64,000 bases of DNA from Candidatus Pacebacteria bacterium RIFOXYA1_FULL_38_18. GTDB lineage: Bacteria > Patescibacteriota > Microgenomatia > UBA1400 > PJMF01. How positions within the stretch are numbered: position 1 is the first letter of the stretch; each line of letters opens with the position of its first letter. The notes beneath the pieces were generated by a model. That model saw only the letters and a program-made list of their open reading frames with translations. It did no database searches and had not been told where the DNA came from. A program made the position numbers and the translations under genes. Shown here one piece after another: positions 2,801 through 26,461 of the stretch. The DNA is taken from the NCBI GenBank assembly GCA_001787405.1, contig MFWV01000009.1:26278-90277 (forward strand), in the 5' to 3' direction.

Positions 2801-3588
2801 GATCGACTTTCCTTTGTTTGCGTTTGCTCTAGTTCCCACAATTTAAGATAAGCTACTGGATAATGTAAACCGCTCATCAATGCGAAAACAAAACCTGGGT
2901 AACCATCCAAAAAACCTTTATGACGCAAAAAGAGTGAAAGAAAAATCTGCAATGGTTTGATTAAAAAATAATAAAAACCACCCCACCACGTCAAACGTTT
3001 ATTCTCTTCCCACCAAAGTTTGGCTCTAAAAGAAGTGTAGGTATCGAACTTACGCAAATAATCAGCAAAGGTAGGATTGGCAAAGTGGAGCAAATGGCCT
3101 TTTGCCAAACCCACCGAACCGTCCACTGTCATTTGCTCGTGCACATCAGCTTGGGGTAATTTGGCTTTGCCGGCTAAATATAAACGAATGACTGGATCAG
3201 GATACTGCCCGCCTTTGGTGAGCCAGCGACCCAAAAATAAATTTTTACGGCGAAGCCACCAAGCAGAATTTTTTAATTGACCTTCTTTGCGTTTTTTTTC
3301 GATGAGTTTGATAAATTCAAATAATTTTTCGTCCACTACTTCATCAGCATCCAGTTGCAAGATTAATTCCCCGCGAGCCTTATCCATTGCCAGCTGTTTA
3401 TTGATGTGAAAATTTTGTTTGTTGGTAGTTTTATAAACTCGTGCGTCAAAACTTTTGGCAATTTGGGGGGTGCTATCTTTAGAACTGCCATCAACTACAA
3501 TAATTTCATCGGCTAATTTTTTGATAGATGCCAAACAACGAGCCAAGTTTTTTTCTTCATTATAAGTAGCCAGTACAACTGAAATCAT
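2797..3588 (-). CDS. GT2 glycosyltransferase, DPM1/ArnC-like polyprenol-phosphate sugar synthase
   Basis: MISVVLATYNEEKNL...VVDGSSKDST...LDADE: GT2-A fold with DxD. The start is trimmed to MISVV for a 4-nt overlap. Confidence 0.85.
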   Translation of the reverse strand: MISVVLATYNEEKNLARCLASIKKLADEIIVVDGSSKDSTPQIAKSFDARVYKTTNKQNFHINKQLAMDKARGELILQLDADEVVDEKLFEFIKLIEKKRKEGQLKNSAWWLRRKNLFLGRWLTKGGQYPDPVIRLYLAGKAKLPQADVHEQMTVDGSVGLAKGHLLHFANPTFADYLRKFDTYTSFRAKLWWEENKRLTWWGGFYYFLIKPLQIFLSLFLRHKGFLDGYPGFVFALMSGLHYPVAYLKLWELEQTQTKESRS

Positions 3589-5150
3589 AAATCCTTTTCT
3601 ACGATCCAAACTGATGCTGTTTCTGACCATTGTACCAAGATTGTCTCGGTTTGAGAGCGATCTTGTGGCTCAGCAATAAAATGATAATGAGTGAGCTGTT
3701 CTCCATAACGAAAACCTATTTGATTTGGTTGCTGACGAATGATGGTTTTAAAATAAACATCAGGCGGAAGTTTGAGATACCAAGCCAAGATAATATAGTG
3801 ATAACCAGACGGATCGACAATGGCTATCGGCTGATCGGGGTGTTCTGCTTCCACTGTTTGCATTACTTGGGCAAAACCAGGTTGAAAAGCTTGCGTTTGT
3901 TTTGGATAAATTATGAATAATTGAAAAGCGTGATGAGTGGCTTCCAAAACAAGCACCAGTATTATTGCTCCCCAAATAAATTTATTTTGTTTGAGCCAGC
4001 CAGTCAACCAAACCAAGCCCCAAACCGCAATAATTTGTAATAAAACAAAAAAGAGCAAACTACGAGTGGCATGTGGCGCATCAACAGTGATGATGGCTGG
4101 GAGGAGTGAAGCAAAGAGCAACCAAAGCCAAGCCAGTTCGCGTTTGTGAGTTATTGTCAATTTTTTACAAGCTCGAATCGCTCTACCTGTCATGGCTATG
4201 ATTCCCACTCCGGCAAAACAGAAGCTAGTCCATAGGACGTGTCCCAAATTGGGCAGACTGTGCCATGGGTGACTACCACCTGTGGTTAGCAAAAACTTGA
4301 TAGAAAATGAGCTAAATAGATTTTTGATCGATAAATAAATAAAATAAAGATAACGATTGCCGATTAATGATTGCCAGGGTTGATTGAGGCTGGCTCGGAA
4401 ATTGCTCCATTCATGCCAAACAGTCTCATCACTGAAAATAGTAATGCCACTTTTTTGAGAAGTCAAAGCAAGCAATGACCTCAAACCTACCAAAAAAACT
4501 GCTCCCAAAATCAATTCTATGAGAATTAATTTGTTTTTCTGTTTATTGGCAAATCGCAACCAAACGAAAATCATCAAAACTGGTAAAAGTAATAAAGGCG
4601 TGTTGTAGGTAAAAATAGCCAGCAAAAGTAAGATTATTAAAAGCGGAACGTGCCAGCGTCGGGCTTTATGCTGAAATTCCAGTAAAACCACCAAGGCAGC
4701 TATTAGGTAGGTAAGAGCTAAGTTGGCCTCAAAAGCCAAACGCGAATACCAAATAAATACGGGAGAGACCGCTATCAATAAACTTGCCAGCCAAGCCTGT
4801 TTTTCAATGAACTTAATTTTTTTGGCCAGTAAAAAAACCAATGGTACCAGCACCGTACCAGCCAGCGCCGATGGCAGACGAACGGCCAAGTCAGTCAAGC
4901 CAAAAATCTTTAAAAAGGGAATTAATAATAATGGATAACCAGCCAATTTATAGTCGCCAAATGATTCTAGGGTAAGTGGCCAGCTTTTTTGCCATTCATC
5001 TTGGCCGGTTGTTGATAATAAATAAGCATTGTATGCCAGAGCTGCCTCATCGCGGTTGAGAATAGCGGGTAATTGACCCAATTGCCAAACACGCAAGAAG
5101 AAGGCTAATAAGGTGATTGAGATTAATAACCAATTGATTTTTTTATTCAT
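3585..5150 (-). CDS. GT-C family membrane glycosyltransferase (ArnT/PMT-like, GT39/GT83-type)
   Basis: N-terminal TM then first-loop motif LNRDEAALAYNAYLLSTTGQDEW (DE motif) and more than ten TMs. 4-nt overlap with the next gene. Confidence 0.85.
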   Translation of the reverse strand: MNKKINWLLISITLLAFFLRVWQLGQLPAILNRDEAALAYNAYLLSTTGQDEWQKSWPLTLESFGDYKLAGYPLLLIPFLKIFGLTDLAVRLPSALAGTVLVPLVFLLAKKIKFIEKQAWLASLLIAVSPVFIWYSRLAFEANLALTYLIAALVVLLEFQHKARRWHVPLLIILLLLAIFTYNTPLLLLPVLMIFVWLRFANKQKNKLILIELILGAVFLVGLRSLLALTSQKSGITIFSDETVWHEWSNFRASLNQPWQSLIGNRYLYFIYLSIKNLFSSFSIKFLLTTGGSHPWHSLPNLGHVLWTSFCFAGVGIIAMTGRAIRACKKLTITHKRELAWLWLLFASLLPAIITVDAPHATRSLLFFVLLQIIAVWGLVWLTGWLKQNKFIWGAIILVLVLEATHHAFQLFIIYPKQTQAFQPGFAQVMQTVEAEHPDQPIAIVDPSGYHYIILAWYLKLPPDVYFKTIIRQQPNQIGFRYGEQLTHYHFIAEPQDRSQTETILVQWSETASVWIVEKDL

Positions 5151-6835
5151 GGCATTTTTTCAAAATAAATAGCTGCATACTCTGGTCGGTAATCTGCTGT
5201 ATAAAAAATTTTATACCAATTTGGCTGACGAGAGGCAATGGTTTCCAGTTGCCAATCAATAAAATCTTTTCTAGCAATCAAAACTGTTTTTTCAGACAAA
5301 GTAGGTAGTTTTCCCCAATCGAACCAACGAAAACGAATATTATCAATATGGGTGGGCATGTATTGATCAAACTCAATTTTGCTAAAATCCTCAACTGGCA
5401 ATTCATAGGCCATTAGCCACAAATAAAATCTGCTATCGAAAGGCTCGATCCACACTACATCCATTTCTTGTTTTTGTTGCCAAGCTTCATGCGCCAAATC
5501 AGCAAAACCAGTCTGCCACTCACTAGCCGATAGACTGGGATAGACGGAGAAATAAAAAGTAGTGAAGTCCCAAAATGAAAATGCCACTATTGATAGTAAA
5601 CTAAGCCCGAAAGCTAGTTTGAGCCAGCTTGGTTCAACTGCTTGCTTGATTTTCTGCCAACCATAGAAACATCCCCAACCAATCACCACAGTCAGTGGAA
5701 CTAGAGCATTGAGAGAGCGCAAGGCATGAGGGGTGGTTTCTGGTACTGAAGCTGGCAGTAGAGCTGTCAGCCACCACAAGAGCAATAAGACTCCCACTCG
5801 CCAGTGTTTAGTAAACAAAACAAACCAACCATAGATAAAGGGCAAAATAAAAATCGTCAAAAACAAACCATGCCTACCAGTACCATGACGAAGATTGGGA
5901 TCGCCAGTAAAAAAGAGAAAGTCGCTAGAAAGATTGTCTGCATAATTTTTGGCCAGTTCACGAATCAATAAAACTTTGGGATGATAAATGACTTTATCAA
6001 ATAAGGTATTACCGGCTGATAATTTATATTGATTGGAGACTACTGGCCAATCAGCCATGTTCAAAACAGAAGTGGCGCTGAGCCGAAACTGATTGCTGAT
6101 TTTATAAAATGGTGAGCGATACATGGGCCAAAGACTGAGGGTAAAAATCAAGAGCGGTAAAATTAAATTCAAACCAAGCCAGCGCCATAAATTCTGGCCT
6201 TTTCGTTGGGGACCGGCAAATAAACAAATGGTTGCTACAAAAACTACCGGCCAAACAAAACGAATCGAAAAATAAGTATAAGTAGCCAAACCACCCAATA
6301 AAGCTGCGGCCAAGCCCCAAACCCAGTGTTTTTTAGTTTTGAAAGCCAACCAAATACTAGTTGCCATCAGCAATTGACCCACGTGTCCTTCAAAGCCAGT
6401 TCTGGAAAAAAGGATGCTCCAGGGAGTGAGAGCGATAATGAATGCTGTCCACAGAAAAATTGATTGTTGATGCTGTTTTTTTATAGAACCTACCAGCTGA
6501 CTAGCCAAAGCTCCTCCAATGAAAATAGTTGCCATACCAGCCAAGGCGCTGGGTAGCCTCAAAGCCCAATTACTAGCTCCCCACAGTTTAACACTGATAG
6601 AAGCCAGCCAAATATAAACCGGAAGCTTGTAATCACCATAAGACGGGAAAATAGCCGATAGCCAAGCATTACCATGCATGTCCTGACCAGTGGCAGCAAT
6701 GGCTCGCGCATCTACCAAAATCGCTGCTTCATCCCAGTAAAGAGAGACTGGCACCTCTCCCAAACGATAAAAACGCACCGTCAAGCCAATCAAGAAAATA
6801 AAACTCAAAATTAAAGCAAAAAGCCATTTGGACAT
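5147..6835 (-). CDS. GT-C family membrane glycosyltransferase (ArnT/PMT-like)
   Basis: RFYRLGEVPVSLYWDEAAILVDARAIAATGQDMHGNAW; polytopic. Confidence 0.85.
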   Translation of the reverse strand: MSKWLFALILSFIFLIGLTVRFYRLGEVPVSLYWDEAAILVDARAIAATGQDMHGNAWLSAIFPSYGDYKLPVYIWLASISVKLWGASNWALRLPSALAGMATIFIGGALASQLVGSIKKQHQQSIFLWTAFIIALTPWSILFSRTGFEGHVGQLLMATSIWLAFKTKKHWVWGLAAALLGGLATYTYFSIRFVWPVVFVATICLFAGPQRKGQNLWRWLGLNLILPLLIFTLSLWPMYRSPFYKISNQFRLSATSVLNMADWPVVSNQYKLSAGNTLFDKVIYHPKVLLIRELAKNYADNLSSDFLFFTGDPNLRHGTGRHGLFLTIFILPFIYGWFVLFTKHWRVGVLLLLWWLTALLPASVPETTPHALRSLNALVPLTVVIGWGCFYGWQKIKQAVEPSWLKLAFGLSLLSIVAFSFWDFTTFYFSVYPSLSASEWQTGFADLAHEAWQQKQEMDVVWIEPFDSRFYLWLMAYELPVEDFSKIEFDQYMPTHIDNIRFRWFDWGKLPTLSEKTVLIARKDFIDWQLETIASRQPNWYKIFYTADYRPEYAAIYFEKMP

Positions 6836-6859
6836 GTATTTATGGTAACAGAGTTTAAC

Positions 6860-8614
6860 TTACATTTCCTCTGGTGTCTGAATACCCAGTAAAGCCAGTC
6901 CTTCACTCAAAACTAACCTGGTTGCTTGAGTCAAACTCAAACGAACTTGTTGCTGATCCTGAGTTCGGGCGGTTAAAATAGGATTTTGATTGTAAAAAGT
7001 ATTGAATCTTTGTGCCAATTCAAATAGAAATGAGGCTAAATGATGGGGCGTAAATTCTTCAGCAGCTTTTGTCACTACTTCTGCCAAACGATTCAGATAT
7101 TTGATGAGCGCAAGCTCTGTTTGGTCAAAATCATAATTGGCAGGGATTGATAACTGCTGATGCTCTCTTTTATTTAAAACACTCTGGGCTCTTACTGCTG
7201 CATATTGCACATAAGGGCCGGAATTGCCCTTCATACTGAGTATTTCATCCCAGTCAAAAGAGATATCTCTGGCGGCCTCACTTTTTAGATCGTTCCATTT
7301 GAGGGCACCTATCGCTATTTGTTCCACGCTAGCTTGATTGTCTGAGGACAGTGAGGCCGCCCTCTGTTCAGCCTCATCAATCACATCTTGCAACCAAATT
7401 ACATCTCCTTTTCTAGTCGACATTTTTCTAGTCTTGAAACGATATAGGCCGTGTTTTACATGCACTCTTTGCTTGGGTTTGTACCAACCCAGCATTTGCT
7501 CTATTTTATAAAGCTGTTTGAAATATAAACTTTGCTCAGCACCAACCTCATTGATCACCAAATCAGGCTTGAATTCTTTCAATCTGAAATAATCCGTAGC
7601 CAAATCTCTAGTGGAATATAAAGTAGTGCCATCCTTTTTTAAAATCATCAAAGAGGGGAGTGCTTTATCTTCAAAAAAGACTAGTTTTGCTCCATCTTCT
7701 CCTTCACCATAATGACCTCCATTTTTCTCAGATTCATCTTGGGGAAGTTTCTCTCTCAGGATTTCCAAAACTTGCTCCATGCGCCGTTCAAAAAAAGACT
7801 CTCCATAACCCCGACCATTATTTTCCGTAAAAGTTATCTTCAATTTTGTATAAATTTTGTCAAATTCCTGCCAGGATAAATCCACACACCATTGCCAAAT
7901 TGAGCGAGCATCATCATCACCTTCCTCTAGTTTCTTAAACCAAGCTCGTCCATAATCATTCAGAGTGGAATCTTCTTCTGCTCGCTGATGAAACTTGACA
8001 TACAGTTCCACCAGTTCTTTGATCGGCCTAGAAGATTTGCTAATAGCCTCTCGATCTCCCCAAGTTTTGATCGCATAAATTAATTTTCCAAACTGAGTCC
8101 CCCAATCTCCCAAATGATTGTCTCGCAAAACTTCCCAGCCAAGCACTTCATATAAATTGGCCAGAGCATCACCAATGATCGTTGAACGGAGATGACCCAC
8201 AGTAAATGGTTTGGCGATATTAGGTGAGGAATATTCAACAATCACTCGTTTCCCCTGCCCCGCCGGGGGAATAATGGTTTGTATACTAGAAACTTGATTG
8301 ATTTCATTCAATTGACGCAACCAGTATTGTGAAGAGAGAGTAAAGTTGATAAAGCCAGGACCCGCCACACTCATTTCTTGAATATCAGTTTCTTTTGTCA
8401 AAATAACTTGCAATTTTTCTACCAAAGCAGCAGCCAACTCTTTAGGACTGCTAAATTTATCTGTTTGCTTGATGTATTGCAGAGCAACATTGCTACTCCA
8501 ATCACCGAATTGATCATCAGCTGGATGCTCCAACTTGAGTGCTGAGGGTTGAAGGTTTAGTTCACCAAGAGCTTGCTGGATGGCTTGAGTAATAGAGTTA
8601 ATAATCACTCCCAA
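6860..8614 (-). CDS. argS: Arginine--tRNA ligase
   Basis: Class I aaRS: SSPNIAKPFTVGHLRSTIIGDAL (HIGH-like), the N-terminal Add-1 domain pattern QFGDWSSNVALQ, and a C-terminal anticodon-binding domain ending ...EEM. Confidence 0.9.
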   Translation of the reverse strand: MGVIINSITQAIQQALGELNLQPSALKLEHPADDQFGDWSSNVALQYIKQTDKFSSPKELAAALVEKLQVILTKETDIQEMSVAGPGFINFTLSSQYWLRQLNEINQVSSIQTIIPPAGQGKRVIVEYSSPNIAKPFTVGHLRSTIIGDALANLYEVLGWEVLRDNHLGDWGTQFGKLIYAIKTWGDREAISKSSRPIKELVELYVKFHQRAEEDSTLNDYGRAWFKKLEEGDDDARSIWQWCVDLSWQEFDKIYTKLKITFTENNGRGYGESFFERRMEQVLEILREKLPQDESEKNGGHYGEGEDGAKLVFFEDKALPSLMILKKDGTTLYSTRDLATDYFRLKEFKPDLVINEVGAEQSLYFKQLYKIEQMLGWYKPKQRVHVKHGLYRFKTRKMSTRKGDVIWLQDVIDEAEQRAASLSSDNQASVEQIAIGALKWNDLKSEAARDISFDWDEILSMKGNSGPYVQYAAVRAQSVLNKREHQQLSIPANYDFDQTELALIKYLNRLAEVVTKAAEEFTPHHLASFLFELAQRFNTFYNQNPILTARTQDQQQVRLSLTQATRLVLSEGLALLGIQTPEEM

Positions 8615-8661
8615 AGATTATACTGATTAATCAGCATTTGGAAAAGCCGAATCTCAAGAAC

Positions 8662-10362: not shown

Positions 10363-10368
10363 TTTATT

Positions 10369-11982: not shown

Positions 11983-12010
11983 ATAAATATTAATTATCGC
12001 GTTCTAAATC

Positions 12011-13998: not shown

Positions 13999-14002
13999 TC
14001 AA

Positions 14003-15738: not shown

Positions 15739-15765
15739 AGTTTGTCATTCATTATACTATTTATA

Positions 15766-17505
15766 CTACTGGTTTTTACCCTGATATTCCCAAACTTCAA
15801 CACCGGTAGGAGCTGATTGGTGCTTTAAAGTGGTCAGCAACCGATAATCAGGATGATTGCGATTAAAATCAGGAATTTGAGCTTCTTCAACCACAAATAA
15901 AATGTTTTTGTTGTTATACAATTGATTGTTTGACCAATCGATTGATTGAAAATAAATATTATCTAATTTACTAACATGACTAAAACCTTCCACATCATGG
16001 GGATAATATTCAATGCGCGTAGTTAATTCTGCCGGATGACCAGCTTCATAAAATAAAAAATAAATATAAGGAGAATAAGTTTCGTCCTGAAAATAGATGG
16101 CATCGTAATGAGTTTTTTGTTCAGTCAACCAATAAACTAAAGTCTTCATTTGCCACGACCAATAACGAGCATCTTGAATTGGATAAACAAAATAATAATG
16201 AATTAAAAAACGATAAGCATTATAAGATAATCCTATAATTATGAATGAAAATAGAGTGATTAGGACTTTTCTTGAACAATATTTTTGCATTATTTGATGT
16301 AATTTAATAAAACCGTAGACCGAGAGTATTTCAATCACTACAAAAGCCGGTGAAAATCTAATCGTATGATTAGCTTGAAAAGTAATCATAGGTGCAACAC
16401 TGGCCGCCAGCAACCAACCTCCCAACCAAATCTGCCAGCGTTGAGGTCGAATAAATAATGAAGCTATACCAACTACTAAACCAAAAAACATGATCGGGTA
16501 GAAATTTCCAAAACCAGTCAAATTGTGAGCATGATTATCTCCTCCTTGTAAAAACAAAAACTCCGGAGAGATCATCTTAAAAAAATTAGTTTTCAACTGC
16601 ATGAAAAAGGCACTAAATTTGTTGGCGGCCAGCACCAAACTTAACTGTTCAAATTGCGGTACAATGCTACGATATTGATTAACTTGTTTAGTATAAGCAT
16701 CAAGATCAAAGATCGATAAACCATTAAACTTCGTTTGATTAGCTTCCTGGATACCGCTGAATAATAAGAGTGTGCCGATAAAAATAAAAGGAGCCAGACT
16801 AGCTATCACCCAGGATCGATGACCGTTAAAAAACTTTTTCCAAGTCGACCAATAAAGACTCACTGTCATCAACCAAAACAATGGTATAAAAACCTGATAG
16901 GCATGATAACCTACCAAAGTTAAGGCCCACAGTCCTTGTGAGCCAATTAATAAACCCAACCTTTTTCGACCATGCTGAAAGTCACGCCAGACTATTAATA
17001 AGGCCACTAGTCCCCATAAAAACAAAGCTAAGGCAAGATGAGCTTCATAAGCAATATGTGAAAAATGAACTGCCCAAGGAGAAACCGCCAAAATCCATGG
17101 CACTAAAAGTGACAACCAAGTACGAATTTTTTTATCCTTGATTAATAATAAAACCAACCAATAACTACTGACAACCACACTCACGCCCGCTAAAGCCGAG
17201 GGCAAACGCACTGTCCAAGTAGTTAAACCAAACACTTTGACCAACGGAATTAAAACATAGATATAAAGCGGTAATTTCCAGTCACCGAATGATTCAATTT
17301 GCAACGGCCAAGCCACTCCGCGTTCATCTCGACCAGTTTCTAATAAAGAATAAGCTGTGTAACCTAAAGAAGCCTCATCACGATTGAGTTCTATCGGCAC
17401 TTCCCCTAGTTTAAAAAAACGTAAAACAATAGCTAAAATAAAAATCAAACCAACCAAAAGTTGATGTCGATGATTAATGAGTGAAGTTTTAATTTTATTC
17501 ATCAA
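15766..17505 (-). CDS. GT-C family membrane glycosyltransferase (ArnT/PMT-like)
   Basis: RFFKLGEVPIELNRDEASLGYTAYSLLETGRDERG; polytopic. Confidence 0.85.
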   Translation of the reverse strand: MMNKIKTSLINHRHQLLVGLIFILAIVLRFFKLGEVPIELNRDEASLGYTAYSLLETGRDERGVAWPLQIESFGDWKLPLYIYVLIPLVKVFGLTTWTVRLPSALAGVSVVVSSYWLVLLLIKDKKIRTWLSLLVPWILAVSPWAVHFSHIAYEAHLALALFLWGLVALLIVWRDFQHGRKRLGLLIGSQGLWALTLVGYHAYQVFIPLFWLMTVSLYWSTWKKFFNGHRSWVIASLAPFIFIGTLLLFSGIQEANQTKFNGLSIFDLDAYTKQVNQYRSIVPQFEQLSLVLAANKFSAFFMQLKTNFFKMISPEFLFLQGGDNHAHNLTGFGNFYPIMFFGLVVGIASLFIRPQRWQIWLGGWLLAASVAPMITFQANHTIRFSPAFVVIEILSVYGFIKLHQIMQKYCSRKVLITLFSFIIIGLSYNAYRFLIHYYFVYPIQDARYWSWQMKTLVYWLTEQKTHYDAIYFQDETYSPYIYFLFYEAGHPAELTTRIEYYPHDVEGFSHVSKLDNIYFQSIDWSNNQLYNNKNILFVVEEAQIPDFNRNHPDYRLLTTLKHQSAPTGVEVWEYQGKNQ

Positions 17506-17514
17506 ATTTTTAAT

Positions 17515-18441
17515 TTACATTTGAAATTTACGCCTGATTTGCCAATAAATTTTTCTGAAACCGCCAGTATGCCTAACCTGATAATCAGCCCACCAATAAT
17601 GCCAAATTCGTTGCATTTGCTGCAAAGATTTACCCAAATCCTCTGGCTTGGTAACCTTGAAACCTTGGTTGCCCCATTGTTTTAAATAAATAACAGCTTC
17701 ATACATAGCCTGCAATAATGAGAGCGCCACGCCATGCATGCCTTCTTCCACGCCATCCATCATCAGGGCGCGTTTGGCAAACTCTCCTGCAAACTTCTCC
17801 AAAACTACTGCGCTGGAAAAGTCTTTTATTTCAGTACGCTCCTTGGCTTGAATGCTGGTGTAGTGATTGAGTTTGGTAACAAAATGATCAACATCATCAT
17901 AATTGAAATGCTGAAGAGCATACTTTTCTTCTGTGGGCAAATAAACTTCTTTTCCCTTGACGTCTGGCAGTCTATGTACGCCAACCTGCCAGGAAACCGC
18001 TCCTTTTTTAAACAACCTAGGTTGATAATCAGGCCACCAACCAGTTTTAGTTATCCAATGCCCGAACACAATGTTTTTCCTGGGCAGCCAATAAACATCT
18101 GCAGCTGATTCCTGATCTAGAGTCTGTAAAACAATTTGTTTGAGCTCATCACTCACCACCTCATCGGCATCAACAACCAAGATCCACTCATGACTGGCCT
18201 TACTCAAAGCAAAATTCCGGGCTGGATCTGCATAGCCCAAATCTTTATGCTGAAAAATCTTTTTGGTGAATTTTCTGGCCAAGGTGAGAGTGCCGTCACT
18301 GCTGTACATATCCACTATCACGATTTCATCCGCGAAACTAACCGATCTCAAAGTCCGTACAATAGTGTTAGCCACATCTTTGGTATTGATCACTACCGAT
18401 AATTTGACTGAGCGCATGTCGTCATTGTACCGTTTTTTCAC
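17515..18441 (-). CDS. GT2 glycosyltransferase, DPM1-like polyprenol-phosphate sugar synthase
   Basis: KLSVVINTKDVANTIVRTL...VDMYSSDGT...VDADE. Confidence 0.8.
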   Translation of the reverse strand: MKKRYNDDMRSVKLSVVINTKDVANTIVRTLRSVSFADEIVIVDMYSSDGTLTLARKFTKKIFQHKDLGYADPARNFALSKASHEWILVVDADEVVSDELKQIVLQTLDQESAADVYWLPRKNIVFGHWITKTGWWPDYQPRLFKKGAVSWQVGVHRLPDVKGKEVYLPTEEKYALQHFNYDDVDHFVTKLNHYTSIQAKERTEIKDFSSAVVLEKFAGEFAKRALMMDGVEEGMHGVALSLLQAMYEAVIYLKQWGNQGFKVTKPEDLGKSLQQMQRIWHYWWADYQVRHTGGFRKIYWQIRRKFQM

Positions 18442-18486
18442 TAAAGTAAAAATAGATGATAATCAATCGTCGATTGATCTTTAACC

Positions 18487-18515
18487 TTGTGACAGTTTTT
18501 CTAAACTGTTACAAT
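18487..18515 (+). promoter_or_regulatory. Sigma70-like promoter TTGTGA-N17-TACAAT overlapping an imperfect inverted repeat (TTGTGACAG-N10-CTGTTACAA)
   Basis: Read directly from the divergent intergenic region between the GT2 gene (-) and the gene at 18529 (+). The spacing is 17 nt and the ATG lies 14 nt downstream of the -10. Confidence 0.35.
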
Positions 18516-18528
18516 TTTTTTAAGTTAA

Positions 18529-19629
18529 ATGAAAAAAATATTGACCAATTCCATCTTTTGGCTTTTTGTTTTAATTTTTTCTACTACCATTCTAGCAACC
18601 TTAATTCATCGCGCCGAAATCTTCATTCCCACCAATCGTAAGGCTATCAGTCTAGCTTACAGTCAATCGCAGTATGTTCTGGGCGATGAAGCTTTACAAA
18701 AAATAGATGACAATACTCTCTATCAGTATGCAGCCGAAGCCTATCTTCGGGGCGAAGATCCCACGACAATCAATTTTGAGCATCCTCCACTGGGTAAATA
18801 TTTATTTGGTCTGTCGCTACAACTATTTAATCAAGTTTTAGTCATCAATATTTTATTGTTTGCTATTTGTTTGAGTCTATTTGCTCTTCTTCTAAAACAA
18901 TTGAAGTTTTCTGAGACCTTTATTTTCTTGGCAGTTGGTTATTTGGCATTGGGCAGTGGTTTGAGTGGCCATTTGCGCACGGCTCTTTTTGATTTGCAGA
19001 TTTTAATTTGGTCGTTGGCATTTTTTAATGTTTTATTTTTGACAAAAGAAAATTGGCAAAAATATACTTTGCTTGGCTTAGTGCTGGGTTTGTTGATGGC
19101 TACTAAGTATTTTTTTCCGATCATTTTTTTATTTATTGGTCTGTTGGGTATCTGGGTTTGGCAAAAACAAACTTGGAAAAAAGCAATTTTGAGTCTGGTA
19201 ATAGCCGTAATCACTTATTTATTTAGTTATATTGTTTTCTTTCTTCATCAGCATTCATTGATGGATTTTATTCGTTTTGAATGGTTTCGTTTCCGTTGGT
19301 GGACAGGTAATCGAACCATTCCCAAGTTTATTATTTTGCAGACTTTGTTTCTGGGAAAATATCAAGCTTGGTGGGAACCAACTCGGCAATATTTGCCCAG
19401 CGGTGATTGGAATTGGAGTTGGCCTATCTTGTTTATTGTTTATCTCATTTCACTCATCAAACAAAAACTATCATTAAAGACAGCCATAATTATTCTTTAT
19501 ACTCTAGGTTTATTGGGAATTTTTCTCCTTGGATCGGCCGTTTATGGTCGTTATCTACTACAATTAATTCCTTTCTGGTTAATTATTATTGGTCGGGCTT
19601 ACCAAAATGTACAAAAAAATAATCACTAA
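18529..19629 (+). CDS. Small PMT_2-like GT-C membrane protein
   Basis: FEHPPLGKYLFGLSL motif (the HPPLgK of PMT/ArnT-type enzymes), a preceding LGDEAL loop, and about ten TM segments. Confidence 0.7.
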   Translation: MKKILTNSIFWLFVLIFSTTILATLIHRAEIFIPTNRKAISLAYSQSQYVLGDEALQKIDDNTLYQYAAEAYLRGEDPTTINFEHPPLGKYLFGLSLQLFNQVLVINILLFAICLSLFALLLKQLKFSETFIFLAVGYLALGSGLSGHLRTALFDLQILIWSLAFFNVLFLTKENWQKYTLLGLVLGLLMATKYFFPIIFLFIGLLGIWVWQKQTWKKAILSLVIAVITYLFSYIVFFLHQHSLMDFIRFEWFRFRWWTGNRTIPKFIILQTLFLGKYQAWWEPTRQYLPSGDWNWSWPILFIVYLISLIKQKLSLKTAIIILYTLGLLGIFLLGSAVYGRYLLQLIPFWLIIIGRAYQNVQKNNH

Positions 19630-21358
19630 ACTTTCCAACTTATTAAAACTTAAAACTACCAAAAAGTGGTTGATTTTAATCATTAGTCTCGGCATCATTT
19701 TGGGTGGAATATTTTTAGCTATTCGTAAGATGAGAATTTCTCAAGGAATGTGGTATTCCTTTGATGATGTCCATGTTATCAGAACCGTGGCTATGGCTCA
19801 TGAACTTGAGCGCGGTCAATTTCCAGTCAGAATACTCAGTGATTTTGGTAATGGTGGCGGTTATCTTTTTTTTAATTTTTATTCTCCGCTGGTTTATTAC
19901 TTGACTGCTGGATTGGTTTTTCTTGGTAATCATCCGCTCAATGCCGTTAAGCTTGCTTTTCAGTTGTGTTATTTACTGGGAGCCTTGGGCATGTGGACTT
20001 GGTTGCGCCGACTCTTTCCTCAAAAACCCTGGGTCGCTGTTATCGGTAGCTTGTTGCTGATTGGTAGCGGTTATTTCAACTATGATGCTTATGTGAGAGG
20101 TTCATTGGGCGAATTGAGTGGTTTTGCCCTTACTCCCTGGCTTTTTTGGCTTTATGAAAATCTGAAAACTAGCCCAAGAAATAAACTGAGTATTGGTTTG
20201 CTGGCGCTAGCTATCAGTACTTTCATGTATGTTCATATGATTACAGCCTTTATTGTTTTGCCTTTTCTGGGTTTGCGTTGGATTTGGGATCTTTATTTTC
20301 ATCAACTCAAACCAACCAAACGCTGGAATTTGGCTTGGGCAGGCTTACTATCAATAGGTCTTTCAGCTTCCTATCTTTTGCCAGTAATAGTCGAAAAATC
20401 ATTGGTTTGGTACAGTCAAATAGATTATGTCACCCAAGGCTTTCAAAGTGGCTTTGTTTCTTTTGTTGAACTGGTCGGTTGGCAAAAAAATGCCGATCCC
20501 ACCATTCTGCCCATGACTGTTGGGTCCTGGTTGAGCCTGAGTGCTGGGATAGCGATCATCTTCAGTTGGCAACAATTAAAAAGATTGACTGGCAAACAGA
20601 TGATGGTGCAATCCTCACTCTGGTGGTTTGCTGTCAGCGGTTTATTGTTGGCATTATTTATTCAAAGTAAATGGAGTAGAGTGATTTGGGAAAATAGTAG
20701 TCTTTTGCAAATGACTCAATTTCCCTCTCGTTATCTAATGATTATCAGCCTTTTGGCTGTCTTGATTGTTAGCCTGGGCTTGGCTAATTGGAAAAAAGAT
20801 CTAATTGCTATTTTATTGGGAATTACTCTTCTTTCTTTGACTTGGTGGCAAAATCAGCCGCTCATGACCCCGTCCGGATATTACTTTACTGATGAGTTTA
20901 GAGCAGAAGATCTGTGTAGCTCCTCAACTTGGCAGTACGAATATCTACCCAAATGGACACAGGAGTGTTTGCCAAAAGGTCACTCTTTTCCCATAGCGAC
21001 CAGCTCAGAAGCCTTGGAAATCTTGGACGTTCAAGTGGCCGATAACCTCACTTCACTGGAGATAAAAACCAATGGAAAACCTGGCGAATTAATCATTACT
21101 CGTTATTATTTTCCTGGTTGGCAAATCAAGAGTGATCAGCAAATTCTTGAGTCTTATCCTGTTGGTAAATATGGTTTGTTGGGTGCACGAATATCCACCA
21201 ATCAAACTCAACTTAGTGTTCAGTTTACCGACACTCCCATTAGAACTTGGGCCAATAATATTTCAATCAGTAGTTTAATTATAGGATTATGGTTGATAAC
21301 GACCGATAGTATTACTTTGATTAGAAAAAAATTAAAGCTGAAATTCAAAAAACCTTAA
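19607..21358 (+). CDS. Large polytopic membrane protein, GT-C/YfhO-like (paralog B)
   Basis: MWYSFDDVHVIRTVAMAHELERGQFPVRIL...GNGGGYLFFNFYSPLVYY, and a C-terminal domain with YFPGWQ before the final TM. The start is chosen at the internal MYKKII; the ORF track start is 19589. Confidence 0.7.
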   Translation: MYKKIITKLSNLLKLKTTKKWLILIISLGIILGGIFLAIRKMRISQGMWYSFDDVHVIRTVAMAHELERGQFPVRILSDFGNGGGYLFFNFYSPLVYYLTAGLVFLGNHPLNAVKLAFQLCYLLGALGMWTWLRRLFPQKPWVAVIGSLLLIGSGYFNYDAYVRGSLGELSGFALTPWLFWLYENLKTSPRNKLSIGLLALAISTFMYVHMITAFIVLPFLGLRWIWDLYFHQLKPTKRWNLAWAGLLSIGLSASYLLPVIVEKSLVWYSQIDYVTQGFQSGFVSFVELVGWQKNADPTILPMTVGSWLSLSAGIAIIFSWQQLKRLTGKQMMVQSSLWWFAVSGLLLALFIQSKWSRVIWENSSLLQMTQFPSRYLMIISLLAVLIVSLGLANWKKDLIAILLGITLLSLTWWQNQPLMTPSGYYFTDEFRAEDLCSSSTWQYEYLPKWTQECLPKGHSFPIATSSEALEILDVQVADNLTSLEIKTNGKPGELIITRYYFPGWQIKSDQQILESYPVGKYGLLGARISTNQTQLSVQFTDTPIRTWANNISISSLIIGLWLITTDSITLIRKKLKLKFKKP

Positions 21359-21411
21359 ATTATAGGATGTTGATAATTTAAAATAGAGTAGGGGAGTATT
21401 TTTTTTAAATC

Positions 21412-23088
21412 ATGAGGAAAAATATAAGCTTAATTTTATTGACTGTTATTGTGACGTTGGGTTTTATTTTCCGATTCATTAATTTGACTGACACCCCTGC
21501 TGGTTTTAATTGGGATGAGGCTTCTGTCGGTTACAATGCTTATTCTCTGTTATTGACTGGCAAAGACGAGTTCGGTCGCAGTTGGCCCATATTTATTGAA
21601 TCATTTGGTGATTTCAAAACTGGACTCTATAGTATGATGCTTGTGCCTATCATTAATTGTCTGGGTCTTAATGTTTTCTCAGTTAGAGTGCTCAATGTTT
21701 TTATTGGTACCAGTTTGATTATTGCCGGTTATTTTTTGGGGAAACAATACTTTAAAAGAACAACAGAGGCCCTAATACTAGCTGGTTTATTGGCTTTCTC
21801 ACCTTTGGCGATTCATTTATCACGCTTTACGCTGGAATGGTACGCTGCCCTACCTCTTTTTGTAACAGGAGTCGGGTTATTAATTCATGAAAAAAAATTC
21901 AGTTGGCGTCTGATTCTAGCTACCGTTTTATTGGGTTTTAGTTTGTACTGGTATCACAGTCTGCGATTAATCTTACCGTTCTTTCTCTTCAGTTACTTTC
22001 TAATTTATCGTTCGCAACTACTCAAAGAGAAAAAAATCTTTATTTTGAGTTTGGTTGTAGGTTTACTCAGCATCACTCCCCTCTTGATTGCTTTCAAACA
22101 AAATAATATTTTGACCAGACCTCAGGCGGTAGCCATTTTTAATGATAGTGAACAGCAAAGATTGCAAACAGAAAGCTTATATCGTTTTACGACCGCCAGT
22201 GTTCCTTTGCGCAGAATCTTGGCCAATAAAGGAGTTTATTATTTGCAAGAAATTGCCTATCGATATCTAGGTCATTTTTCTCCTGAGTTTTTATTTTTTG
22301 GCACTGATGCCACTCCCAGAATCAGCATTCATCAAGTAGGCAAACTACAATTAGTAGCGCTCCCCTTTCTAATTATTGGTTTTGCCGAAGTTTTGAAAAA
22401 ACGAAGTAAAGAGAATCTGCTGATTTTAAGCTGGGTTTTTCTAGCTCCTCTGCCCGCCAGCCTAACCACTGATGCACCACATGGCTTGCGCAGTTTATTA
22501 CTTTTGCCTGTTTTATTATTGATTGTCGTGATTGGCTTGAGCAGAGTTCATCTTTATTTTAAAAAGCATTGGTCGTCAACTTCAGTCACTTTGATGGAAG
22601 CTTTTATCTTTCTTGTTTTTATGGCAAATTTTCTTTCACAAATTTCGCATTATTTTCTTTTTTATGCGGAGGAAACTACCTCTTATTGGCAAGCTGATCA
22701 ACAAGAAATGGTTCATAAATTAAATCTTTATAAAGATCAATATCAACAAGTTTTGGTTAGCACTGATGATGGCCAACCTTATATTTTTATTGCCTTTTTT
22801 ACCCCAATTAACCCTTTAGAGTTTCAACAAGCCATCAAAAATCAACAACAAATTTTTAATTCTAGGGTTAATCAACTGGGTAACCTCATTTTTAAAACCA
22901 TTCATTCTGAAGATTATTGTCTGCCAAATACTCTAATCATTACCAAAAACTTTCCAGTAGTAAAAAATCTAAAACCAATCGCCACTGTTTATCTGCCAAA
23001 TCGTTGGCATGAACCTAAAGAGAGTTTTTATTTCTTTGAAACTGACAATCCCCTCATTCGGAGTCAATTATGTCCGGTTGAAAAATAG
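21412..23088 (+). CDS. GT-C family membrane glycosyltransferase (ArnT/PMT-like)
   Basis: RFINLTDTPAGFNWDEASVGYNAYSLLLTGKDEFGRSW; polytopic. Confidence 0.85.
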   Translation: MRKNISLILLTVIVTLGFIFRFINLTDTPAGFNWDEASVGYNAYSLLLTGKDEFGRSWPIFIESFGDFKTGLYSMMLVPIINCLGLNVFSVRVLNVFIGTSLIIAGYFLGKQYFKRTTEALILAGLLAFSPLAIHLSRFTLEWYAALPLFVTGVGLLIHEKKFSWRLILATVLLGFSLYWYHSLRLILPFFLFSYFLIYRSQLLKEKKIFILSLVVGLLSITPLLIAFKQNNILTRPQAVAIFNDSEQQRLQTESLYRFTTASVPLRRILANKGVYYLQEIAYRYLGHFSPEFLFFGTDATPRISIHQVGKLQLVALPFLIIGFAEVLKKRSKENLLILSWVFLAPLPASLTTDAPHGLRSLLLLPVLLLIVVIGLSRVHLYFKKHWSSTSVTLMEAFIFLVFMANFLSQISHYFLFYAEETTSYWQADQQEMVHKLNLYKDQYQQVLVSTDDGQPYIFIAFFTPINPLEFQQAIKNQQQIFNSRVNQLGNLIFKTIHSEDYCLPNTLIITKNFPVVKNLKPIATVYLPNRWHEPKESFYFFETDNPLIRSQLCPVEK

Positions 23089-26437: not shown

Positions 26438-26461
26438 TCCTATCAAACTAAGGTTTAATCT

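What the first reader, a model, noticed from the sequence alone, without database searches (positions are those of the whole stretch)
3585..23088. Lineage-specific expansion of six highly similar ArnT/PMT-like paralogs
The ORFs at 3585, 5147, 8662, 10369, 15766 and 21412 share the same N-terminal architecture and the near-identical first-loop motif [YN][WR][DE]EA[AS][IL]GY[ND]AYSLL.TG.DE.G..WP. Their C-terminal soluble domains diverge. This looks like repeated duplication with diversification of acceptor specificity, that is, a toolkit of related transferases acting on different positions or acceptors. The ORF at 35684 carries a DQGRDA variant of the catalytic loop (E to Q) and may be catalytically altered or use a different mechanism.
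Basis: seen in the sequence. Interest (0 to 1): 0.55.

Follow-up and report, generated by a model that had tools for sequence, protein, structure and literature searches.

The report
Ancient conserved membrane glycosyltransferase paralog operon
Six related membrane sugar-transferase genes really are here, but they are old, individually conserved paralogs. Four of them form an operon shared by dozens of related ultra-small (CPR) bacteria, so this is a conserved cell-envelope glycan toolkit, not a recent expansion private to this genome.

Summary
The six ORFs exist as described and are homologous over almost their full length. "Highly similar" is wrong: pairwise identity is only 25-35%.

The window comes from Candidatus Pacebacteria RIFOXYB1_FULL_39_46 (CPR/Microgenomates). 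Four paralogs (D-C-B-A, 10369-11982 down to 3585-5150) sit in a tightly packed operon: gt2b-D-C-(ArgRS)-B-A-gt2a-gt4a-K. That gene order recurs across the 80 species-representative loci. Each of A-D is its own orthologous clade (bootstrap 90-97) under purifying selection (dN/dS about 0.07-0.13). E and F also have orthologs elsewhere, in other genomic contexts. So the recent, private-expansion reading fails, while the "toolkit of non-redundant transferases" reading survives.

The AlphaFold model (pLDDT 95.7) has a GT-C fold equally close to STT3/PglB, ArnT and PMT. It meets no ArnT-specific criterion. ORF 35684 belongs to a separate, conserved GT-C subfamily. Its GDQGRD motif is invariant in 119 of 120 homologs, it keeps the universal first Asp, and it directly follows a homolog of polyprenyl-phosphate-mannose synthase. 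It is probably active, not crippled.

Function is inferred: outward-facing, polyprenyl-phosphate-sugar-dependent decoration of an envelope glycan.

The parts
3585..5150 (-). Paralog A (521 aa), a GT-C membrane glycosyltransferase and the last of the four operon paralogs
   Evidence: Pfam PMT_2 36.5 bits and PMT 32.3 bits, both above cutoff. AF2 model has pLDDT 95.7 and a GT-C fold. Its orthologous clade has 77 members, bootstrap 97. It is 100% identical to P0001 from Pacebacteria RIFOXYB1_FULL_39_46.
5147..6835 (-). Paralog B (562 aa); its stop overlaps the start of A by 4 nt
   Evidence: PMT_2 26.4 bits, just above the 26.1 cutoff. Clade of 67 members, bootstrap 90. B lies directly upstream of A in 52 of 63 loci. 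The B-A gap has a median of -4 nt and is <=10 nt in 95% of 58 loci.
8662..10362 (-). Paralog C (566 aa)
   Evidence: No relevant Pfam hit even at E<=1. BLASTP to A/B/D/E/F gives E from 1e-38 to 2e-46. Clade of 45 members, bootstrap 97.
10369..11982 (-). Paralog D (537 aa), the first of the four operon paralogs
   Evidence: PMT_2 32.9 bits. Clade of 34 members, bootstrap 90. The D-C gap has a median of -4 nt.
15766..17505 (-). Paralog E (579 aa), lying between two GT2 genes
   Evidence: No Pfam hit. BLASTP to A gives 7e-45 and to F 5e-51. Homologs at 36-40% identity exist elsewhere, one next to a D ortholog in L085. It groups with Woesebacteria-labelled P0093 at bootstrap 100. It is absent from the gt2e-gt2d junction in L017, L020 and L052.
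21412..23088 (+). Paralog F (558 aa by ORF; the database copy is annotated as 545 aa), the only one on the + strand
   Evidence: No relevant Pfam hit. About 27 homologs at 42-63% identity, then a drop to 33%. The homolog in L084 lies in an unrelated context of purine and Fe-S genes.
4977..5057 (-). First-loop motif site in A (NRDEAALAYNAYLLSTTGQDEWQKSWP). Equivalent sites: 6659-6739(-), 10186-10266(-), 11779-11859(-), 17305-17385(-), 21508-21588(+)
   Evidence: Motif scores are 13-21 of 22, against a background maximum of 8. E35 is invariant and D34, D51 and E52 nearly invariant across 125 family members. D34-E35 sits at the N-cap of the first extracytoplasmic helix.
6860..8614 (-). Arginyl-tRNA synthetase gene inserted between C and B
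   Evidence: The L001 ortholog (67% identical) carries Arg_tRNA_synt_N, tRNA-synt_1d and DALR_1. It is present between C and B in only 9 of the 54 loci that have at least 8 kb of upstream sequence; elsewhere C and B abut.
102..3630 (-). Conserved operon tail: gt2a (2797-3630), gt4a (1763-2839) and K (102-1814, a GT-C-like protein of a second family)
   Evidence: Pfam Glycos_transf_2 and Glycos_transf_1. gt2a-gt4a follow A in 56 of 65 loci, and K also follows in 47 of 65. The K ortholog in L001 hits PTPS_related.
12011..15738 (-). Conserved operon head: gt2d (14821-15738), gt2c (14003-14824), gt4b (12868-13998), gt2b (12011-12871), all cytoplasmic Leloir-type glycosyltransferases
   Evidence: Pfam. 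The same order occurs in L001 at 66-74% identity and in many other loci.
17515..21358 (.). gt2e (17515-18441, -), I (18529-19629, +, weak PMT_2) and L (19589-21358, +, PTPS_related GT-C)
   Evidence: Pfam. L, K and M are mutually homologous: BLASTP E 2e-11 to 2e-19 at 26-27% identity.
23108..27649 (.). Wzx-type flippase (23108-24607, -), GT-C-like M (24604-26379, -) and an LCP-family ligase (26462-27649, +)
   Evidence: Pfam Polysacc_synt_3 at 4e-44 and LytR_cpsA_psr at 5e-30. M has weak YfhO, PMT_2 and PTPS_related hits. In 8 variant loci the C-A-B-K-M block lies next to wzx-lcp-rml genes.
27858..34497 (+). Mainly nucleotide-sugar genes: RmlB-like dehydratase, SurE, RmlD-like reductase, UDP-glucose dehydrogenase, epimerase and GDP-mannose 4,6-dehydratase. 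An unrelated 215-aa ORF lies on the opposite strand at 30554-31201.
   Evidence: Pfam.
34508..35683 (+). Polyprenyl-phosphate hexose synthase (GT2 fused to a GtrA/DPMS transmembrane domain), immediately upstream of G
   Evidence: Pfam Glycos_transf_2 plus GtrA_DPMS_TM. It is a full-length homolog of Pyrococcus furiosus dolichol-phosphate mannose synthase 5mlz (E 5e-45, residues 7-363) and also matches ArnC structures.
35684..37249 (+). G (521 aa), a separate GT-C subfamily carrying the GDQGRD motif (residues 35-40)
   Evidence: PMT_2 34.7 bits. No significant BLASTP match to A-F, but the profile-profile comparison gives probability 98.8% and E 8.6e-17. There are 1,283 homologs; D36, G38, R39 and D40 are invariant and Q37 is present in 119 of 120. 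AF2 pLDDT is 90, and the best fold match is ArnT 5f15 at TM 0.62.
37246..40852 (+). GT2 (37246-38013), J (38016-39305, a polytopic membrane protein with no family hit) and H (39302-40852, PMT_2/PMT GT-C), all tightly packed after G
   Evidence: Pfam. Overlaps or gaps of 4 nt or less are read from the coordinates.

Best explanation
The six ORFs are ancient, individually conserved paralogs of a large, uncharacterised subfamily of GT-C (PMT_2-type) integral-membrane glycosyltransferases. Every named source for this subfamily is in the Microgenomates/Patescibacteria group.

Predicted architecture (from the model of A):
- Eleven transmembrane helices with the N-terminus inside the cell.
- An invariant acidic pair (D34-E35 in A) at the start of the first outward-facing helix.
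- Further invariant outward-facing residues: D51/E52, D66-x-K68, R137/E141, H297 and H360/R363.
- A C-terminal outward-facing alpha/beta domain of about 100 aa.

Genomic organisation:
- Four paralogs (D, C, B, A) belong to a tightly packed operon, gt2b-D-C-(ArgRS)-B-A-gt2a-gt4a-K, whose order is conserved across many species.
- E and F are further family members whose position varies between genomes.

Proposed mechanism (inferred, not shown):
- Cytoplasmic GT2/GT4 enzymes build a glycan on a polyprenyl carrier.
- The Wzx-type protein flips it to the outer face.
- GT2 polyprenyl-phosphate-sugar synthases, such as the DPMS homolog at 34508, make lipid-linked monosaccharide donors.
- On the outer face, each GT-C paralog transfers a sugar from such a donor to a different position or acceptor of the envelope glycan.
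- The LCP enzyme then attaches the product to the wall.

This resembles the division of labour among mycobacterial Emb/Aft/Mpt enzymes. ORF 35684 is a different, equally conserved GT-C subfamily paired with its own donor synthase. Its DQ motif is the normal state of that subfamily.

The confidence of 0.6 is for the whole statement. The structural and evolutionary part (ancient, conserved GT-C paralogs in a conserved operon) I put at about 0.9. The specific mechanism (outward-facing, polyprenyl-phosphate-sugar-dependent elaboration of a wall glycan, one linkage per paralog) I put at about 0.5.
For: Shown by tool results:
- Full-length homology among the six, and a motif unique to the six sites.
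- GT-C fold. The AF2 model has pLDDT 95.7 and pTM 0.94. Foldseek probability is 1.00 to STT3/PglB (E 1e-7, TM 0.53-0.55), ArnT 5f15 (E 3.5e-6, TM 0.51), Pmt4 (TM 0.50), DPY19 and ALG12, with weaker matches to AftA and Emb.
- Topology. The short 'in' loops hold 9 K/R in 26 residues; the short 'out' loops hold 0 in 18. All conserved polar loop residues lie on the 'out' side.
- Antiquity and non-redundancy:
  - Orthologs are 55-64% identical, paralogs 25-35%.
  - The A-D clades have bootstrap support of 90-97.
  - Synteny is conserved across the 80 species-representative loci.
  - dN/dS against the closest relative is 0.07-0.13, similar to ArgRS at 0.069.
  - Residues E35, D66, K68 and R363 are invariant in all 125 aligned members, so all copies look catalytically competent.
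- Operon structure. Median gaps between adjacent genes are -4 nt.
- Pathway context in the window: Wzx-type flippase, LCP ligase, nucleotide-sugar genes and a GT2+GtrA fusion. The fusion is a full-length DPMS homolog, E 5e-45.
- In 8 variant loci the GT-C block abuts the wzx-lcp-rml genes.
- For G: the motif is invariant and its helix register is equivalent to that of A. PMC7801869 reports that all GT-C transferases recovered in its homology search keep at least the first Asp of this motif (D55/E56 in ArnT, D77/E78 in Pmt1, D281/D282 in Emb).
Against: - No biochemical data exist for any member. Donor, acceptor and product are all unknown.
- The profile of the six finds no solved structure by sequence, even at E<=1. 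Residue-level catalytic assignments therefore rest on position in a predicted model.
- C, E and F match no relevant Pfam family.
- No polyprenyl-phosphate-sugar synthase was securely identified inside the D-C-B-A operon itself. gt2a's best solved match is GmaR, a protein glycosyltransferase, and only over the GT2 core. Donors would have to come from genes about 30 kb away.
- A protein acceptor, rather than a polysaccharide acceptor, is not excluded.
- dS is near saturation (1.1-1.7), so the omega values are rough.
- Deep nodes of the family tree are poorly supported, for example C with Levybacteria at 57%. How far back the duplications go beyond the clade sampled by the 80 loci is uncertain.
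- All trees are neighbour-joining on Kimura distances, not maximum likelihood.
Confidence: 0.6

Rival explanations
1. One reading: a recent, lineage-specific burst of duplications in this genome. The copies then diversify their acceptor specificity, mainly through the C-terminal soluble domains.
For: The C-terminal domain is the most divergent region, at 17% identity against 40% in the first loop. E and F vary in presence and position between genomes, so some copy-number turnover does occur.
Against: - Paralogs are only 25-35% identical.
- Each of A-D has one-to-one orthologs in dozens of species, in conserved order.
- E and F have their own orthologs or close homologs elsewhere.
- The six do not form a single clade in the family tree.
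- The C-terminal fifth of each of A-D gives omega of 0.04-0.15 between orthologs, with no sign of ongoing diversifying selection.
Confidence: 0.07
2. The paralogs are protein O- or N-glycosyltransferases, like PMT or the oligosaccharyltransferases. Each would modify a different set of secreted or surface proteins (pilins, S-layer or wall proteins) rather than a polysaccharide.
For: The best fold matches are the oligosaccharyltransferases STT3/PglB, and PMTs also match. A reaches the Pfam PMT (GT39) cutoff. PGAP names relatives 'glycosyltransferase family 39 protein'. gt2a's closest solved homolog is GmaR, which glycosylates a protein.
Against: - No PMT C-terminal 4TMC or MIR domain was detected, and no STT3 Pfam hit was reported for the six.
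- TM-scores are about equal for lipid-, glycan- and protein-modifying GT-Cs, so the fold does not discriminate between acceptor types.
- The operon is embedded among Leloir glycosyltransferases, a Wzx flippase, an LCP ligase and rhamnose/GlcA/GDP-sugar genes, which is typical of wall-polysaccharide loci.
Confidence: 0.2
3. The adjacent gene pairs B-A and D-C encode obligate heterodimers, as with Pmt1-Pmt2 or EmbA-EmbB. The paralogs would then be subunits of one or two complexes rather than independent enzymes. This is compatible with the best explanation.
For: B-A adjacency holds in 52 of 63 loci, with a median 4-nt overlap; D-C shows the same overlap. Even the rearranged loci (C-A-B-K) keep A next to B. 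Known GT-Cs of this class work as dimers (general knowledge of Pmt1-Pmt2 6p25, the Pmt4 homodimer and EmbA-EmbB 7bvc, all of which appear).
Against: Every gene in the operon is equally tightly packed, so overlap is not specific to the pairs. No multimer prediction or co-evolution analysis could be run.
Confidence: 0.2
4. The proteins are not glycosyltransferases. They would be GT-C-fold proteins with another role, such as accessory factors for lipid-linked glycan flipping (Agl23-like) or polymerase/ligase-type enzymes.
For: A's only NCBIfam hit is TIGR03663, 'flippase activity-associated protein Agl23', at 44 bits against a cutoff of 126. A also has a weak hit to O_anti_polymase.
Against: Both hits are far below their cutoffs. 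The invariant acidic EL1 motif, the conserved Lys and Arg on the outer face, and the full-length fold matches to bona fide transferases all point to catalysis.
Confidence: 0.05

Closest known systems
Mycobacterial/corynebacterial GT-C arrays (EmbA/B/C, AftA-D, MptA-D, PimE) that extend arabinan and mannan on the outer face from polyprenyl-phosphate sugars
   Same: Many divergent GT-C paralogs in one genome, each presumed to make one linkage. They depend on a polyprenyl-phosphate-sugar synthase (Ppm1/DPMS-type; a DPMS homolog is present here). Each has a C-terminal extracytoplasmic domain. AftA and Emb are recovered as fold matches.
   Different: No detectable sequence relationship; the fold matches are weaker (E 0.02-0.05, TM 0.40-0.43) than those to STT3 or ArnT. 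The proteins here are much smaller (520-580 aa against about 1,000-1,400 for Emb and AftD). The organism is a CPR bacterium. Here four paralogs lie in one conserved operon, and 13 GT-C-like genes lie within 41 kb.
ArnT (GT83; 4-amino-4-deoxy-L-arabinose transferase, PDB 5EZM/5F15)
   Same: GT-C class fold with an acidic pair at the start of the first periplasmic helix (D55/E56 in ArnT, D34/E35 in A), and a small C-terminal periplasmic domain. Size is similar, at about 520-550 aa. Public annotations call relatives 'ArnT-like'.
   Different: - None of the six hits the ArnT NCBIfam model.
- No PDB sequence hit was found.
- ArnT's TM-score (0.51) is no better than that of STT3/PglB (0.53-0.55).
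- The model of A has 11 TM helices, against 13 reported for ArnT (PMC7801869).
- No arn-operon genes other than a distant ArnC/DPMS-like GT2.
- ORF 35684 (G), not the six, is the most ArnT-like protein in the window (TM 0.62).
Protein O-mannosyltransferases (GT39; Pfam PMT PF02366 and the looser PMT_2 PF13231)
   Same: DE motif in loop 1. PMT_2 is reached by A, B and D, and PMT by A. Pmt4 and Pmt1/2 are fold matches. Paralogous PMTs are known to have distinct substrate sets and to dimerise.
   Different: C, E and F reach neither model. No MIR or PMT_4TMC domain is present. The matches to Pmt1/2 cover only about 270 residues. The genomic context suggests a polysaccharide acceptor rather than a protein one.
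Three-component extracytoplasmic glycosylation systems (GtrA/GtrB/Gtr-type; polyprenyl-P-sugar synthase + flippase + GT-C; Kelly et al. 2024, PMC11127046)
   Same: The pair 34508 (GT2 synthase fused to a GtrA-type membrane domain) plus 35684 (GT-C) has exactly this logic and is directly adjacent. The six paralogs would use the same kind of donor.
   Different: In the D-C-B-A operon no dedicated synthase or flippase is recognisable next to each GT-C. Four GT-Cs are chained together, rather than one GT-C per side-chain module.

Membership tests
GT-C superfamily (class with STT3/PglB, ArnT, PMT) | Polytopic membrane fold shared with solved GT-C enzymes | tested here: met
   The AF2 model of A (pLDDT 95.7) gives Foldseek probability 1.00 to STT3/PglB, ArnT, Pmt4, DPY19 and ALG12, with E from 1e-7 to 3e-4 and TM about 0.5. 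The other five paralogs are linked to A by full-length BLASTP.
GT-C superfamily | Conserved acidic residue or pair in the first extracytoplasmic loop after TM1 | tested here: met
   E35 is invariant and D34 at least 90% conserved in 125 sequences. The pair sits at the N-cap of helix 33-48, after TM1 at 7-21, on the 'out' side by the positive-inside rule. The reference motif comes from PMC7801869.
GT-C superfamily | Uses a polyprenyl-phosphate-linked sugar donor | not testable with these tools
   Only indirect evidence: a DPMS homolog (E 5e-45 to 5mlz) is encoded in the window.
Pfam PMT_2 (PF13231) | Score at or above the gathering cutoff of 26.1 bits | tested here: inconclusive
   A scores 36.5, B 26.4 and D 32.9, so all three meet it. 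C, E and F have no hit even at E<=1. Most database relatives carry precomputed PF13231.
GT39 protein O-mannosyltransferase (Pfam PMT PF02366) | PMT model at or above its cutoff, plus the C-terminal PMT_4TMC or MIR domains | tested here: not met
   Only A reaches PF02366 (32.3 against 22.7 bits). No PMT_4TMC or MIR hit was found in any of the six.
ArnT (GT83) | Match to the ArnT equivalog model NF009784 (cutoff 567 bits), or sequence similarity to 5EZM/5F15 | tested here: not met
   None of the six hits the model; only ORF 39302 does, at 27.7 bits. The family profile finds no PDB chain at E<=1.
ArnT (GT83) | Structural similarity to ArnT that is specifically higher than to other GT-C enzymes | tested here: not met
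   ArnT 5f15 gives TM 0.51 and E 3.5e-6, ranked 14th behind STT3 and PglB at TM 0.53-0.55.
ArnT (GT83) | arn operon context and a lipid A acceptor | tested here: not met
   No ArnA, ArnB or ArnD-type genes were recognised in the window. Absence of LPS in CPR bacteria is general knowledge and was not tested here.
Three-component GT-C system (applies to ORF 35684) | Adjacent polyprenyl-P-sugar synthase, GtrA-type membrane component and GT-C | tested here: met
   ORF 34508-35683 combines GT2 with GtrA_DPMS_TM and is a DPMS homolog. ORF 35684 starts at the next base and has a GT-C fold.

The most novel reading that the evidence does not exclude
Pacebacteria-type Microgenomates devote a strikingly large share of a genome that is typically small in CPR bacteria to outward-facing glycan chemistry: at least 13 GT-C-like genes in 41 kb. 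The conserved D-C-B-A operon would encode two obligate heterodimeric GT-C enzymes (D-C and B-A). These would build a clade-defining, so far undescribed wall or surface glycopolymer entirely from lipid-linked monosaccharides. That would be a CPR counterpart of the mycobacterial arabinan/mannan machinery, and perhaps the basis of host-cell attachment in these episymbionts.
Probability: 0.2. Interest if true: 0.65.

Novelty: new member of a known kind. Interest (0 to 1): 0.38.

Why it matters
CPR/Patescibacteria have tiny genomes and almost no experimental biochemistry. What their envelope is made of, and how they attach to hosts, is largely unknown.

This window shows that a whole clade keeps a fixed four-paralog GT-C operon, plus further GT-C genes, under selection that looks as strong as on the ArgRS gene embedded in the same operon. 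That points to an important, conserved surface glycan and gives concrete candidate enzymes for it.

The family is large, at over 8,000 50%-identity clusters. It is poorly captured by Pfam and has no solved relative by sequence. Splitting it into orthogroups (A, B, C, D, E, F) would improve annotation, which currently lumps everything as 'glycosyltransferase family 39' or 'ArnT-like'.

As a genome-scan finding it is an informative correction rather than a surprise: multi-paralog GT-C toolkits are a known theme.

Tried and rejected
- **Locus search with the six-paralog alignment:** I solved this by using an alignment of A orthologs.
- **PDB sequence search with the family profile:** no hit even at E<=1.
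- **NCBIfam:** nothing reached a curated cutoff for any GT-C, GT2 or GT4 protein.
- **Literature:** five searches found nothing on GT-C/PMT_2 expansions in Patescibacteria, Microgenomates or Pacebacteria.
I computed it between orthologs instead, and even there dS is about 1.1-1.7.
- **Clade-specific specificity residues:** a search for positions conserved within each of A-D but differing between them found only two (positions 292 and 362 of A). No clear specificity signature emerged.
- **hhalign register for the DQ motif:** the alignment placed G's GRD40 opposite A's GxD51 and gapped out the DE segment. I judged that region unreliable and relied on the helix register in the two models instead.
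- **Deep phylogeny:** the attempt to date the duplications relative to other Microgenomates phyla gave weak support, apart from E with Woesebacteria.
- **RNA scans:** Rfam and tRNA scans found nothing relevant to the finding.

Full report
**What is in the sequence**

ORF listing confirms six ORFs of 521-579 aa at the coordinates given. Five are on the minus strand and one on the plus strand. I call them A (3585-5150), B (5147-6835), C (8662-10362), D (10369-11982), E (15766-17505) and F (21412-23088).

All 15 pairs align by BLASTP over roughly 400-555 residues, with E-values from 1.7e-17 to 4.7e-51. Identity is only 25-35% (MAFFT alignment A1).

It reaches 21, 21, 18, 17, 14 and 13 of 22 fixed positions at exactly six sites, and nothing else scores above 8. 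The motif is therefore real and specific, but 'near-identical' holds only for E and F.

Identity falls along the protein:
- 40% in TM1 plus the first loop
- 24-29% in the rest of the membrane core
- 17% in the last 100 or so residues

The title's 'highly similar' is not.

**Source and family**

Paralog A is 100% identical to a protein of Candidatus Pacebacteria bacterium RIFOXYB1_FULL_39_46, a CPR/Microgenomates metagenome-assembled genome.

Family assignment by standard libraries is weak:
- Pfam PMT_2 is reached by A, B and D, and PMT by A only.
- C, E and F match no relevant family, even at E<=1.
- NCBIfam gives only a sub-threshold Agl23 hit for A.
- A profile of the six finds no PDB chain by sequence at E<=1.

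The family is nevertheless very large. A profile of 125 members finds 57,180 50%-identity cluster representatives at E<=1e-3, 20,017 at E<=1e-10 and 8,032 at E<=1e-30. All named sources are Microgenomates-type Patescibacteria: Pace-, Woese-, Levy-, Ames-, Gottesman- and Roizmanbacteria. They are annotated generically as 'glycosyltransferase family 39' or 'ArnT-like'.

**Structure**

AlphaFold2 on A, using the 125-sequence alignment, gives pLDDT 95.7 and pTM 0.94.

Foldseek against the PDB returns only GT-C enzymes at significant scores:
- STT3/PglB: E 1e-7, TM 0.53-0.55
- ArnT 5f15: E 3.5e-6, TM 0.51
- Pmt4: TM 0.50
- DPY19 and ALG12
- AftA and Emb, more weakly

So the GT-C fold is established, but there is no specific affinity for ArnT.

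From the helices of the model I count 11 transmembrane segments. The short loops assigned to the inside carry 9 K/R in 26 residues. Those assigned to the outside carry none in 18. This supports an N-in, C-out topology.

All conserved polar loop residues lie on the outside: D34, E35, D51, E52, D66, K68, H297 and H360. So do residues at the outer ends of helices: R137, E141 and R363.

D34-E35 sits at the N-cap of the first extracytoplasmic helix. This is the position of the active-site pair D55/E56 in ArnT, D77/E78 in Pmt1 and D281/D282 in Emb, as compiled in PMC7801869. The residue equivalence is inferred from position, because I could not superpose coordinates.

**Is it a lineage-specific expansion? 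No, not for A-D**

A 55%-identical ortholog of A lies on contigs of Pacebacteria GW2011-type genomes (GC 47%, against 39% here). The gene order there is identical: gt2d-gt2c-gt4b-gt2b-D-C-ArgRS-B-A-gt2a-gt4a-K. Each gene is 54-74% identical to its positional counterpart, while cross-paralog identities stay at 27-31%.

A scan of the GTDB species representatives with an A-ortholog alignment returned 80 loci. In those loci:
- B lies directly upstream of A in 52 of 63.
- B-C lies upstream in 30 of the 54 loci with at least 8 kb of upstream sequence, and B-C-D in 26 of 54.
- gt2a-gt4a follows A in 56 of 65, with K next in 47 of 65.

A neighbour-joining tree of 255 family members puts A, B, C and D into separate, nearly pure clades of 77, 67, 45 and 34 sequences. 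Bootstrap support is 97, 90, 97 and 90, and each clade contains the window's copy.

Genes in the operon overlap or nearly touch. The median gap is -4 nt for D-C, B-A, gt2b-D and gt4a-K.

Against the closest relative (L004, 77-83% amino-acid identity), dN/dS is 0.079 for A, 0.072 for B, 0.112 for C and 0.131 for D. ArgRS, embedded in the same operon, gives 0.069. The C-terminal fifths give 0.04-0.15. dS is 1.1-1.7, so these values are approximate.

The duplications that produced A-D therefore predate the radiation of all these species. Each copy is kept under purifying selection that looks about as strong as on ArgRS.

**E and F**

E has homologs at 36-40% identity. One lies next to a D ortholog in a differently arranged GT-C-rich locus. 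E groups with a Woesebacteria-labelled protein in 100 of 100 bootstraps. In L017, L020 and L052, gt2e and gt2d are adjacent with no E between them.

F has about 27 homologs at 42-63% identity, followed by a break to 33%. One of them lies among purine and Fe-S genes.

E and F are therefore also not private to this genome, but their position, and probably their presence, vary. This is the only part of the 'expansion' idea that survives.

In a wider tree the six do not form one clade. Deep nodes are weakly supported, for example C with Levybacteria at 57%.

**Context and likely mechanism**

The first 41 kb hold 13 GT-C-like membrane proteins:
- the six paralogs A-F
- a second paralog family K/L/M (PTPS_related/YfhO-like, mutually 26-27% identical)
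- G, H and I (PMT_2-type)
- J, which has no family hit and is counted only provisionally

The region also encodes:
- seven GT2 and two GT4 Leloir-type enzymes
- a Wzx-type flippase
- an LCP-family ligase
- genes for dTDP-rhamnose-type, UDP-glucuronate and GDP-deoxyhexose precursors

ORF 34508-35683 is a GT2 fused to a GtrA/DPMS membrane domain. It is a full-length homolog of Pyrococcus dolichol-phosphate-mannose synthase (E 5e-45) and also matches ArnC.

In eight loci with a rearranged order (C-A-B-K-M), the GT-C block directly abuts the wzx-lcp-rml genes.

The best-supported model is as follows:
- A lipid-linked glycan is built in the cytoplasm and then flipped.
- It is elaborated on the outer face by GT-C enzymes, each using a polyprenyl-phosphate sugar and each making a different linkage.
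- It is finally attached to the wall by the LCP enzyme.

Fold, topology, residue conservation, synteny and selection are shown. Donor, acceptor and division of labour are inferred. A protein acceptor and heterodimeric pairing (B-A, D-C) remain open.

**ORF 35684 (G)**

G has no significant BLASTP similarity to A-F, but it is homologous at profile level (hhalign probability 98.8%, E 8.6e-17, 405 columns). It has 1,283 homologs at E<=1e-5; the 120 best listed are 50-83% identical to G.

In 120 of these homologs, F33, G35, D36, G38, R39 and D40 are invariant, and Q37 is present in 119.

Its AF2 model (pLDDT 90) starts the first extracytoplasmic helix at G35-D36, just as A starts it at R33-D34. 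The hhalign register disagrees in that low-confidence stretch.

Several facts argue against impaired catalysis:
- The first Asp, which PMC7801869 reports is shared by all the GT-C transferases recovered in its search, is retained.
- A second invariant Asp (D40) lies one helical turn further on.
- G's best fold match is ArnT with bound undecaprenyl phosphate (TM 0.62).
- The gene begins at the base after the DPMS homolog.

G looks like the GT-C component of a classical three-component glycosylation module (PMC11127046). It is not a catalytically compromised copy of the six.

**Comparison with known systems and verdict**

Functionally, the closest analogy is the multi-paralog GT-C machinery of mycobacteria and corynebacteria, together with Gtr-type three-component systems.

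By membership, the six belong to the GT-C superfamily (met) and loosely to PMT_2 (three of six). They fail the tests for GT39 PMT proper and for ArnT/GT83.

I found no paper describing this family or operon in Patescibacteria in the searchable library.

I classify the finding as a new, uncharacterised member set of a known kind. It is of moderate interest, mainly for CPR envelope biology and for annotation.

Noticed in passing
window 102-1814(-), 19589-21358(+), 24604-26379(-): A second three-member paralog family of large polytopic membrane proteins (K, L, M). They are 26-27% identical, with BLASTP E from 2e-11 to 2e-19. Pfam hits are to PTPS_related, with weak YfhO and PMT_2 hits. They share an HD..H...R...G.FP motif near the N-terminus. 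K is the conserved last gene of the operon (47 of 65 loci).
   Followed up: partly
window 6860-8614(-): An arginyl-tRNA synthetase gene sits inside the glycosyltransferase operon between paralogs C and B. It is found there in only 9 of the 54 loci with enough upstream sequence; in most other genomes C and B abut. A housekeeping gene appears to have been inserted into, and co-transcribed with, an envelope-glycan operon.
   Followed up: partly
window 34508-40852(+): A second tightly packed GT-C block: DPMS homolog, G, GT2, J and H, with overlaps or gaps of 4 nt or less. J (38016-39305, 429 aa) is a polytopic membrane protein with no Pfam or NCBIfam hit at all.
   Followed up: partly
L007, L009, L011, L012 and many others; L038 (DASPLQ010000012.1); L048; L058: Many GTDB species-representative records that carry this Patescibacteria-type operon are titled 'uncultured Pseudomonadales', 'Vitreimonas sp.' (a 1.41-Mb contig), 'Methylococcaceae' or 'Limisphaerales'. 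The record titles probably carry wrong taxonomy, or the bins are mislabelled.
   Followed up: no
L022, L027, L033, L037, L039, L043, L044, L060: An alternative conserved arrangement, wzx-C-A-B-K-M. It lacks D, reverses the A/B order, and lies directly next to lcp and rhamnose, UDP-GlcA and GDP-sugar genes. This links the GT-C block physically to the wall-glycan export and attachment genes.
   Followed up: partly
window 21412-23088(+): The database copy of F (P0241, from the sister bin RIFOXYC1_FULL_39_21) is annotated as 545 aa, against 558 aa for the longest ORF. The true start codon is uncertain.
   Followed up: no
window 2797-3630(-), 14003-14824(-), 17515-18441(-): Three GT2 genes (gt2a, gt2c, gt2e) are themselves paralogs, judged by their L001 counterparts matching all three at 26-32% identity. 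They share a hydrophobic or amphipathic C-terminal tail. gt2a's best solved homolog is GmaR, a protein glycosyltransferase. They could be either Leloir transferases or lipid-phosphate-sugar synthases.
   Followed up: partly
window 42310-42383(+), 60260-60332(+): tRNA-Gln(CTG) and tRNA-Glu(CTC) are the only RNA genes detected by ARAGORN and by Rfam at gathering thresholds.
   Followed up: yes
L085 6477-8384: In a related genome the equivalent GT-C-rich locus also contains a 635-aa protein with weak MptA_B_family/GT87 hits. These are the mycobacterial mannosyltransferase families, which strengthens the analogy to actinobacterial lipoglycan machinery.
   Followed up: no
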